From Escherichia coli (GTDB taxonomy: Bacteria; Pseudomonadota; Gammaproteobacteria; Enterobacterales; Enterobacteriaceae): DNA of 64,000 nt. The notes beneath the pieces are model-generated. The model was not told where the DNA came from. It searched no databases and saw only the letters and a list, made by a program, of their open reading frames with translations. The stretch's first letter is position 1. Every line of letters starts with the position of its first letter. The translations under genes and the position numbers were made by a program. The DNA is taken from the NCBI RefSeq assembly GCF_048403405.1, contig NZ_CP183129.1; one strand, given 5' to 3'. Positions 39,242-39,481 of this stretch are shown piece by piece.

Positions 39242-39481
39242 CGGCAGAAATACACCGGTTTAAAGAATTACTGATCTGGTTTTGCGAATACTGATATTGA
39301 TGATACTAACGGCCCACCGGCCTGTTGAGGAACCTGTAAAACGGAAAGGCTCATTGAAGCCGTATATTTTCTGGAGGTTCATCAGGCGCGGAACTCATCA
39401 AGGCGCGGGAATAAAATCCCATTCAGACGCCGGATAGATTCAAGCAAGCCAACTTGTCGTCAAAATCGGTGTTGCAAAAAC
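39242..39481 (+). ncRNA. Candidate bridge/seek guide RNA in the 3' non-coding region of the IS110-family element
   Basis: Contains aaaacggaaa (39338-39347), identical to the yfeD insertion-site flank, followed 2 nt later by ctcatt, the reverse complement of the element left terminus. Confidence 0.45.

What the first reader, a model, noticed from the sequence alone, without database searches (positions are those of the whole stretch)
39242..39481. The IS110-family element carries an internal copy of its own insertion site: candidate bridge/seek guide RNA
Seen in sequence: the 240-bp non-coding stretch between the recombinase stop (39241) and the right subterminal repeat contains aaaacggaaa at 39338-39347. 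That 10-mer is identical to the yfeD sequence abutting the insertion (minus-strand reading ggaaaacggaa then aaa). Two nucleotides later comes ctcatt (39350-39355), the reverse complement of the element left terminus aatgag (38171-38176). A specific 10-mer occurring by chance in 240 bp on either strand is expected at roughly 5 in 10,000. Established knowledge: IS110/IS1111 recombinases use an element-encoded structured RNA whose loops pair with target and donor DNA. Inference: this region encodes that RNA, and the 10-mer is part of its target-binding guide.
Basis: partly seen in the sequence, partly recalled or inferred. Interest (0 to 1): 0.85.

Follow-up and report, generated by a model that had tools for sequence, protein, structure and literature searches.

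The report
IS4321 guide RNA gene (seekRNA)
The non-coding tail of this IS4321 insertion sequence encodes the structured guide RNA that tells its recombinase where to insert, which is a real feature but one already described for this family of elements.

Summary
The element at 38170-39496 is IS4321, an IS1111-type member of the IS110 family, inserted in yfeD. The main inference holds. The 3' non-coding region encodes a conserved structured RNA (39278-39450). It matches the left half of the target.

The proof is comparative. In 40-45 related elements the scaffold is conserved and only these two loop sides vary. Each tracks its own element's flanks (0 of 10,000 shuffles reach the observed match). 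A covariance model built from this clade also finds the ISEc11 region, where a seekRNA has been shown by experiment.

Two points do not hold. The 10-mer alone is only about p = 0.03, not 5 in 10,000. The CTCATT match to the left terminus falls in a non-conserved hairpin loop and is probably chance.

This mechanism is published, and IS4321 is listed with a predicted right-end bridge RNA, so novelty is low. One side result: yfeD is a near-cognate chromosomal site, occupied in 170 of 5,426 complete E. coli genomes, and the insertion lost one T of the target.

The parts
38170..39496 (+). IS4321, an IS1111-type IS110-family element. It is 1327 bp if T 38170 is counted, giving TAATGAG...AGA.
   Evidence: 99.9% identical to plasmid copies annotated as IS4321. 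The empty Tn21-type repeat has 4 T and the occupied one has 3+2, so the element carries one T. The published length is 1327 bp and the circle junction is AGATAATGAG (PMC5001619).
38177..38188 (+). Left subterminal inverted repeat atggtcactccc, preceded by the 7-nt extension TAATGAG (38170-38176).
   Evidence: Inverted-repeat search across 60 loci; sequence.
38237..39241 (+). DEDD recombinase/transposase gene (334 aa).
   Evidence: NCBIfam NF033542 'IS110 family RNA-guided transposase', 341 bits against a cut-off of 140. Homologues carry Pfam PF01548 and PF02371.
39278..39450 (+). Structured RNA domain closed by helix P1 (39278-39285 with 39444-39450). This is the predicted long seekRNA / bridge RNA.
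   Evidence: RNAalifold consensus and pair counts on 43 sequences: 97.6% of cells paired against 25-45% for slid controls, and 12 pairs with compensatory changes. Covariance model R1 scores 169.7 bits here. Coordinates. U-G pairs in P1 and P5 fit the + strand only.
39320..39387 (+). Target-binding stem-loop. Stems P3 (39320-39328 with 39379-39387) and P4 (39333-39335 with 39375-39377) enclose an internal loop. This is the predicted short seekRNA.
   Evidence: Helix 4 has 5 of 8 pairs with changes on both sides. The same fold appears in the MFE of the single sequence.
39338..39347 (+). It pairs with target top strand T|TTCCGTTTT.
   Evidence: It sits on the 5' side of the internal loop. This segment is hypervariable among relatives and is complementary to each element's own right flank.
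39347..39362 (+). Apical hairpin P5 (GGCU / loop CAUUGA / AGCC) between the two guides.
   Evidence: Helix 6 has 3 pairs with compensatory changes. The loop sequence is not conserved: CTCATT is present in only 6 of 40 aligned sequences.
39364..39371 (+). Bottom-strand (left-target) guide AUAUUUUC, identical to target top strand ATATT|TTC.
   Evidence: It sits on the 3' side of the same loop. Identity to each element's own left flank is 84-100% at target positions -5 to +3 across 31 guide families. It matches 8 of 8 in GGATATTTTCCG-type repeats, 7 of 8 in Tn21 and 6 of 8 in yfeD.
39394..39398 (+). Candidate right-donor guide CUCAU, complementary to ATGAG of the left end TAATGAG. Inferred, not shown.
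   Evidence: Nearly invariant in the clade. The aligned segment in ISEc11 is AUUACAU against its left end aaATGTAAT. In IS5708 it is CUUUCA against TGGAAG, with one G-U pair.
39402..39431 (+). Hairpin P6/P8, between the two candidate donor guides.
   Evidence: Helices 7 and 8; all four pairs of helix 8 show compensatory changes.
39434..39441 (+). Candidate left-donor guide AUAGAUUC, identical to the right junction ccATAGA|TTC. Inferred, not shown.
   Evidence: AUAGAU is invariant in the clade. The aligned segment in ISEc11 is AUAUAAA against tcATAT|AAA. In IS5708 it is UUAUAGUAG against ccTTAT|AGTAG.
39472..39477 (+). TTGCAA, the -35 box of the promoter completed only in the excised circle (17-nt spacer, then GA|TAAT across the junction).
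   Evidence: Read directly from the sequence. TTGCAAAA is invariant in 43 relatives. Promoter boxes at the IS4321/IS5075 circle junction are reported in PMC5001619, and for ISEc11 in PMC11187229.
39482..39496 (+). Right subterminal inverted repeat gggagtgaccat (39482-39493) plus the 3-nt extension AGA.
37886..38169 (-). 3' part of the interrupted yfeD gene (left flank of the element).
   Evidence: Matches intact yfeD in K-12 and GN04592.
39497..39604 (-). 5' part of the interrupted yfeD gene (right flank). It begins with ttccgttttcc, the near-cognate right half-site.

Best explanation
The stretch 39242-39496 is the right-end non-coding region of IS4321. It encodes the element's seekRNA (bridge RNA), transcribed on the + strand together with, or downstream of, the recombinase gene.

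Shown here: about 173 nt (39278-39450) fold into a conserved multi-helix RNA. One stem-loop (39320-39387) carries an internal loop whose two sides are the only hypervariable parts of the RNA in this clade. [quoted passage not shown] The 3' side (AUAUUUUC, 39364-39371) is identical to the top strand of the left half, so it would pair with the bottom strand. The two matches overlap at the T-run where insertion occurs.

Inferred from the published ISEc11 and IS621 work: the recombinase binds this RNA. The two guides hold the two strands of the Tn21-family terminal repeat, or here its look-alike in yfeD. The excised circular element, with junction AGA-T-AATGAG, is then recombined into that point in one orientation without a target duplication.

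Inferred more weakly: a second loop around hairpin 39402-39431 reads the element's own ends. CUCAU (39394-39398) would read the left end and AUAGAUUC (39434-39441) would read the right end plus the first flank bases.

The yfeD site was used because it shares TTTTCCGTTTTC with the Tn21 repeat.
For: Identity of the element: 99.9% to IS4321; NF033542, 341 bits; canonical Tn21 repeat site.

Structure: MFE fold; alifold. One search gives 39 pairs, 97.6% paired against 25-45% when slid, 12 pairs with compensatory changes, and 0 of 500 shuffles reaching the observed covariation.

Guides: one search shows only the two loop sides varying. One search gives per-locus matches of 7-11 nt. In one search the fixed-register matches sum to 201 against a shuffled mean of 100 (sd 9), with 0 of 10,000 shuffles as high. 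In one search the longest common match for cognate pairs is 7.6 (top-strand guide) and 7.9 (bottom-strand guide), against 4.9 and 5.0 for non-cognate pairs, with 0 of 5,000 shuffles as high.

Homology to a validated seekRNA region. Model R1 aligns full-length to the ISEc11 3' non-coding region (36.6 bits, E 1.4e-8) and to that of IS5708 (27.4 bits, E 5e-6). Both have the top-strand guide 5' and the bottom-strand guide 3' of the hairpin, matching their own targets.

Literature: PMC11187229 shows the seekRNA is essential, co-purifies with the transposase and is programmable in ISEc11, ISPa11, ISKpn4 and ISPst6, with the top-strand match 5' of the bottom-strand match. A supplementary table of PMC11208160 lists IS4321 with its bridge RNA in the right end. 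PMC5001619 reports the circle junction AGATAATGAG with promoter boxes.
Against: There is no expression or binding data for IS4321 itself. Rfam 15 has no family that matches this region. The RNA ends are not defined. The top-strand guide register shifts by 1-2 nt between relatives because of T-runs, so fixed-register scores for it are modest. Helices P1 and P2 are almost invariant, so they lack covariation support. The donor-loop assignment rests on short matches of 5-9 nt in three clades. Two single-copy relatives with altered right ends (L058, L080) show no matching RNA change.
Confidence: 0.9

Rival explanations
1. The RNA is a target-only seekRNA. It reads the target and the target-derived flanks of the integrated donor. 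The element's ends (subterminal repeats and extensions) are recognised by the protein rather than by a second RNA loop. The CUCAU and AUAGAUUC matches are then conserved scaffold or protein-binding sequence.
For: [quoted passage not shown] In the IS4321 clade both the ends and the candidate donor guides are nearly invariant, so there is no within-clade covariation. L058 and L080 have changed right ends without any RNA change. The AUAGAUUC and IS5708 UUAUAGUAG matches extend into the flank, not only the element.
Against: Between clades the two segments change together with the ends, at aligned model positions. Durrant et al. report donor-binding nucleotides in a multiloop for many IS1111 elements (PMC11208160).
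Confidence: 0.3
2. The 10-mer match is a coincidence in an A/T-rich region. On this view the non-coding region is only terminal DNA bound by the transposase, plus the -35 box of the junction promoter.
For: 3% of dinucleotide shuffles give a match of at least 10 nt to the 24-nt target. There is no Rfam hit.
Against: Guide-flank covariation across 31 guide families was never reached by shuffling. A second guide for the other half-site sits on the opposite side of the same loop. The enclosing helices show compensatory changes. The region is homologous to the ISEc11 seekRNA region.
Confidence: 0.02
3. The internal copy of the half-site acts at the DNA level, for example as a decoy or self-target for the recombinase, rather than through an RNA.
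For: The 10-mer is literally a DNA copy of the right half-site in inverted orientation.
Against: The two half-site copies are separated by a hairpin and are in opposite senses, so they do not rebuild a target duplex. U-G pairs in P1 and P5 would be A-C mismatches on the other strand and mean nothing in duplex DNA. In ISEc11 the region works in trans as a T7 transcript (PMC11187229).
Confidence: 0.02

Closest known systems
seekRNA of IS1111-family elements ISEc11, ISPa11, ISKpn4 and ISPst6 (Siddiquee et al. 2024, PMC11187229)
   Same: It is encoded in the long 3' non-coding region, between the transposase stop and the right subterminal repeat. [quoted passage not shown] Both segments lie on the two sides of an internal loop around a small hairpin. 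Insertion makes no target duplication, and the circle junction forms a promoter. The covariance model from the IS4321 clade aligns full-length to the ISEc11 region.
   Different: The IS4321 RNA has not been tested experimentally. Its recombinase is only about 37% identical to that of ISEc11 (identity matrix in the paper's source data). The guide sequences and target differ: Tn21-family terminal repeat against GTGAAAATACTG. The overlap shared by element and target is a single T, rather than the 4 bp reassigned in ISEc11.
IS621 bridge RNA (Durrant et al. 2024, PMC11208160; Hiraizumi et al. 2024, PMC11208158)
   Same: Same recombinase family (DEDD RuvC-like domain plus Tnp domain). [quoted passage not shown] A second region is a candidate for reading the element's own ends.
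   Different: In IS621 the RNA lies in the left end, upstream of the gene. The order of its guides is reversed (bottom-strand guide 5', top-strand guide 3'). Its donor loop is a simple internal loop and its core is the dinucleotide CT. Here the RNA lies in the right end, the subterminal repeats are long, and the candidate donor guides flank a hairpin in a multiloop. No handshake-guide equivalent was found: the bases after the top-strand guide (AGG) do not match the donor.
IS5075 (closest named relative, same target)
   Same: About 93-94% DNA identity. The two guides are identical, and the scaffold is 171 bits against the same model. It has the same insertion point in the Tn21 repeat.
   Different: A few substitutions outside the guides.

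Membership tests
IS1111 group of the IS110 family | DEDD (RuvC-like) transposase with the PF01548 and PF02371 domains | tested here: met
   NF033542, 341 bits against a cut-off of 140. Homologues carry PF01548 and PF02371.
IS1111 group of the IS110 family | Subterminal inverted repeats with short extensions beyond them (7 nt left, 3 nt right) | tested here: met
   atggtcactccc / gggagtgaccat, with TAATGAG and AGA beyond them.
IS1111 group of the IS110 family | Long non-coding region downstream of the transposase gene, short one upstream | tested here: met
   67 nt upstream (38170-38236) against 255 nt downstream (39242-39496).
IS1111 group of the IS110 family | Site- and orientation-specific insertion without target duplication | tested here: met
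   Tn21 repeat: empty site 4 T, occupied site 3+2 T, with one T belonging to the element. The same flanks recur in independent loci. At yfeD there is no duplication and one T is lost.
seekRNA / bridge RNA | Segments complementary to both strands of the target, overlapping at the insertion point, that covary with the target among relatives | tested here: met
   (0 of 10,000 and 0 of 5,000 shuffles).
seekRNA / bridge RNA | Guides displayed in an internal loop of a conserved secondary structure | tested here: met
   helices 4, 6 and 8 have compensatory pairs.
seekRNA / bridge RNA | IS1111-type order, with the top-strand match 5' of the bottom-strand match | tested here: met
   39338-39347 (top strand) precedes 39364-39371 (bottom strand). 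ISEc11 and IS5708 show the same order.
seekRNA / bridge RNA | Homology to an experimentally validated seekRNA | tested here: met
   Model R1 aligns over all 173 positions to the ISEc11 3' non-coding region, 36.6 bits, E 1.4e-8. E-values from the shortened calibration are rough.
seekRNA / bridge RNA | Transcribed, bound by the transposase and required for circle formation and insertion | not testable with these tools
   Shown for ISEc11, ISPa11, ISKpn4, ISPst6 and ISEc21 (PMC11187229), not for IS4321.
seekRNA / bridge RNA | Second (donor-binding) loop complementary to the element ends, as in IS621 | tested here: inconclusive
   Candidate segments at 39394-39398 and 39434-39441 change with the ends between three clades. 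They are invariant within the clade, the matches are short, and there are two exceptions.
Rfam family | Match to a curated covariance model | tested here: not met
   No hit at E up to 10 in 37800-39900, nor at E up to 0.01 in 35500-41000, other than tRNAs. Rfam 15 seems to have no model that detects this RNA.

The most novel reading that the evidence does not exclude
The yfeD insertion may be a natural record that the two target guides set the two junctions independently. The empty yfeD site has a run of 5 T, where the canonical target has 4. The occupied site has 3 T on the left, including the element's own T, and 2 on the right, so one target T is missing. That is exactly the product expected if the left junction formed in the register of the bottom-strand guide and the right junction in the register of the top-strand guide. 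A full 10-nt right-half match with only 6 of 8 on the left was enough for insertion. If so, the site gives rules for off-target use and register slippage in IS1111-type RNA-guided recombinases. A related reading is that the third guide-like segment (AUAGA-UUC) reads the integrated right junction, element end plus flank, for excision. That would differ from the IS621 donor loop.
Probability: 0.3. Interest if true: 0.45.

Novelty: already known. Interest (0 to 1): 0.22.

Why it matters
The finding shows that a reader working from raw sequence can recover the guide of an RNA-guided recombinase. It does not add a new kind of system. IS4321, its Tn21-repeat target, its circular intermediate and the seekRNA / bridge RNA mechanism of its family are all published. 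IS4321 is already listed with a predicted right-end bridge RNA, and NCBI names the protein an RNA-guided transposase.

Three things here appear to go beyond the papers I could search. First, an explicit guide map for IS4321/IS5075, with the top-strand guide at 39338-39347 and the bottom-strand guide at 39364-39371. Second, evidence that a whole clade of enterobacterial, Xenorhabdus/Photorhabdus, Pseudomonas and Burkholderiales elements shares one scaffold and is retargeted only by swapping these two loop sides. Third, a chromosomal near-cognate site in yfeD that is occupied in about 3% of complete E. coli genomes. These results are useful for annotating resistance plasmids and for thinking about off-target behaviour of IS1111-type recombinases, but they are incremental.

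Tried and rejected
1. Rfam 15 gave nothing relevant, so no curated model could be used. I built my own model.

2. My first coordinates for the right end were off by 8 nt. I corrected them.

3. CTCATT as a donor or handshake guide was rejected. The loop is not conserved, although the left end is nearly invariant. In IS621 logic a handshake guide next to the right-target guide would match the left-donor top strand, not the right donor (PMC11208158). The bases after the 10-mer (AGG) do not match AGA-T either.

4. Helix P2 (GAUGA 39299-39303 with UCAUC 39395-39399), predicted by alifold, never varies in the clade. It is not kept in ISEc11, where 2 of 5 pairs are non-standard. I therefore treat UCAUC as a possible guide rather than a proven stem strand.

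5. A 2-nt TT core, as a parallel to the CT core of IS621, was rejected. It predicts 3 T in the empty Tn21 site, and 4 are seen. A single shared T fits.

6. Extension of AUAGAUU into the right flank was tested within the clade. The eighth position does not covary (L010, L027, L050).

7. The small ORF at 39282-39437 (51 aa) lies across the conserved RNA helices and was not pursued as a gene.

8. Partridge and Hall 2003 (PMC219399) could not be read. Its content is cited only through papers that quote it.

Full report
**What is there.** The window holds a complete IS4321 inserted in the chromosomal gene yfeD. The match to E. coli plasmid copies annotated as IS4321 is 99.9%, and about 93.5% to IS5075. 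The 334-aa ORF at 38237-39241 scores 341 bits against NCBIfam NF033542, 'IS110 family RNA-guided transposase'. The element has the IS1111-type anatomy. It has the subterminal inverted repeats atggtcactccc (38177-38188) and gggagtgaccat (39482-39493). A 7-nt extension TAATGAG lies on the left and a 3-nt extension AGA on the right. The upstream non-coding region is short and the downstream one is 255 nt.

**Checking the observation.** The 10-mer aaaacggaaa (39338-39347) is the reverse complement of the target top strand t|ttccgtttt. That is 9 nt of the right flank plus one T across the junction. The empty yfeD sites of K-12 and of a strain with identical flanks confirm it. The significance was overstated, however. 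3% of dinucleotide-preserving shuffles of the 240-nt stretch give a match of at least 10 nt to the 24-nt target on one strand or the other. The single match is therefore only suggestive.

**Structure.** I fetched 80 loci encoding relatives of the recombinase at 61-100% identity. They come from Enterobacterales, Xenorhabdus/Photorhabdus, Pseudomonas, Azotobacter and Burkholderiales. In 60 loci with recognisable repeats I defined the element ends.

- The 3' non-coding regions align well.
- From 39278 to 39450 the sequence is highly conserved, apart from a few short stretches.
- RNAalifold gives a multi-helix structure.
- Counted on 43 sequences, its 39 pairs are 97.6% paired. When the 3' partners are slid by 1-3 columns, only 25-45% are paired.
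- 12 pairs have changes on both sides, and no shuffle out of 500 reaches the observed covariation.
- The support comes from the stem that encloses the guide loop (helix 4), the small apical hairpin (helix 6) and the distal stem of a second hairpin (helix 8).
- Helices P1 and P2 never vary, so they are not proven.
- Nearly invariant U-G pairs fit transcription of the + strand only.

**The guides.** The two most variable stretches of the RNA are the two sides of one internal loop. In IS4321 the 5' side is UGUAAAACGGAAA and the 3' side is GUAUAUUUUCUGG, with the hairpin GGCU-CAUUGA-AGCC between them.

Each relative's 5' side is complementary to its own right flank, and its 3' side is identical to its own left flank. 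In Xenorhabdus, for example, GAAACAAAA pairs with ttttgtttc and GGGAGUUUUU matches gggagttttt. In a Yersinia element, AGCAUGAAAA and ACACUUUUUU both give 10-nt matches.

- In a fixed register, the variable parts of the two guides match cognate flanks far better than flanks of other guide families. The sum is 201 against a shuffled mean of 100 (sd 9), with 0 of 10,000 shuffles as high.
- Free of register, the longest common match averages 7.6 and 7.9 nt for cognate pairs and 4.9 and 5.0 nt for non-cognate pairs, with 0 of 5,000 shuffles as high.

The 10-mer is the top-strand (right-target) guide. It matches ATATT|TTC of the target and overlaps the first guide at the T-run where insertion occurs.

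**Link to validated RNAs.** Siddiquee et al. (PMC11187229) showed the following for the IS1111-family elements ISEc11, ISPa11, ISKpn4 and ISPst6:

- an RNA from the 3' non-coding region co-purifies with the transposase;
- it is essential for circle formation and insertion;
- it carries a top-strand match 5' of a bottom-strand match;
- it can be reprogrammed.

A covariance model built only from the IS4321 clade aligns over its full length to the ISEc11 3' non-coding region (36.6 bits, E about 1e-8). It also aligns to the non-coding region of an IS5708 copy that lies next to IS4321 on a plasmid (27.4 bits). In both, the aligned loop sides are the known or evident guides. For ISEc11 they are CAGUAUUUU and GUGAAAAUA, against the target GTGAAAATACTG. 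For IS5708 they are AUAUCCUACU and UUAACGAA, against the flanks cttaacgaa and agtaggatat. Durrant et al. (PMC11208160) predicted bridge RNAs in 93% of IS1111 elements, and their supplementary table lists IS4321 with the RNA in the right end.

**The CTCATT claim.** CT of this hexamer belongs to the conserved hairpin stem and CATT to its loop. The loop reads CAUUGA in only 6 of 40 aligned sequences. Elsewhere it reads CUCUGA, CUUUCA, CCUUGA, CACUGA and other variants. Nearly all these elements keep the left terminus TAATGAG. It also does not fit the handshake-guide logic of IS621. I regard it as chance.

**Candidate donor-reading loop (inferred).** Two nearly invariant single-stranded segments flank the hairpin at 39402-39431.

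- CUCAU (39394-39398) is complementary to ATGAG of the left end.
- AUAGAUUC (39434-39441) is identical to the right junction ccATAGA|TTC.

At the aligned positions, ISEc11 has AUUACAU against its left end aaATGTAAT, and AUAUAAA against its right junction tcATAT|AAA. IS5708 has CUUUCA against TGGAAG, with one G-U pair, and UUAUAGUAG against ccTTAT|AGTAG. The arrangement mirrors the target loop: a top-strand reader, then a hairpin, then a bottom-strand reader. It agrees with Durrant's remark that IS1111 donor-binding nucleotides sit in a multiloop. The matches are short, there is no covariation within the clade, and two relatives with altered right ends show no RNA change. I give this about even odds against a target-only seekRNA model.

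**Element ends and the yfeD site.**

- The empty Tn21 terminal repeat reads gctttaTTTTccgttttctgagg, with four T.
- With IS5075 inserted, it has three T on the left and two on the right.
- The element therefore contributes one T. This agrees with the published length of 1327 bp and the circle junction AGATAATGAG, which also forms a promoter (PMC5001619). TTGCAA at 39472-39477 is the -35 box, 17 nt before GA|TAAT.
- yfeD shares TTTTCCGTTTTC with the Tn21 repeat but has five T.
- The occupied yfeD site again has three plus two T, so one target T is missing.
- The right half of yfeD matches the top-strand guide 10 of 10. The left half matches the bottom-strand guide only 6 of 8.
- The observed junctions are what one expects if each junction formed in the register of its own guide. 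Loss of a T by slippage after insertion is the alternative. I cannot separate the two.
- The same left junction is present in 170 of 5,426 complete E. coli genomes. I found no paper mentioning yfeD together with IS4321.

**Verdict.** The kind of system is already known. Interest is low. The yfeD near-cognate site and the possible donor loop have modest side value.

Noticed in passing
window 38141-38170 and 39497-39520; empty sites L087 and L002: yfeD mimics the Tn21-family terminal repeat (shared TTTTCCGTTTTC) and is a chromosomal near-cognate site for IS4321. The identical left junction is found in 170 of 5,426 complete E. coli genomes. Compared with the empty site (5 T), the occupied site has lost one T.
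   Followed up: partly
window 36638-37846 (+): A 402-aa ORF immediately upstream of the yfeD 3' end is a TnpB RNA-guided endonuclease (NF040570, 381 bits). K-12 has only about 50 nt between gltX and yfeD, so this strain carries an extra IS200/IS605-type element here. That makes a second RNA-guided mobile element within 400 bp of IS4321. No Rfam family matched its expected guide RNA region. A weak HgcC-like hit at 37800-37900 scored 14 bits (E 3.2) and was cut off by the search boundary.
   Followed up: partly
window 39291-39303: An invariant UGAUGA (39298-39303), preceded by CUGA (39291-39294), sits in the 5' single-stranded part of the RNA. UGAUGA-like motifs also occur at the aligned place in ISEc11 (GUGAUGAC) and IS5708 (UUGAUGGU). 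The letters resemble box C and box D of C/D-box RNAs. This is curious given the proposed IS110-Nop5 link (bioRxiv 10.1101/2024.06.21.599552), but it is only a resemblance.
   Followed up: no
L001 219-1500 (plasmid NZ_CP054225.1); also L005: An IS5708-family element lies directly upstream of IS4321. Its right flank (agtaggatattt) is the left half of the repeat that IS4321 occupies, and L005 shows the same arrangement. Two different IS1111-type elements therefore appear to target adjacent positions of the same terminal repeat, each with its own guides.
   Followed up: partly
L003-L082: Across relatives with quite different targets, the left end is nearly always T-AATGAG and the right end is nearly always AGA followed by TT in the flank. 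The targets therefore always contain TT at positions +1 and +2, and both guides carry a conserved A-run or U-run next to their variable parts. The programmable part of each guide is only about 5-6 nt.
   Followed up: partly
P0053: A 381-aa protein in the database fuses MerR domains (PF00376, PF13411, PF09278) to the IS4321-type transposase. It is probably a gene-calling artefact or a read-through, caused by insertion in the Tn21 repeat next to merR.
   Followed up: no
window 40186-40258 and 40301-40373 (+): Two tRNA genes lie downstream of yfeC (63 bits each). This is ordinary genomic context.
   Followed up: no
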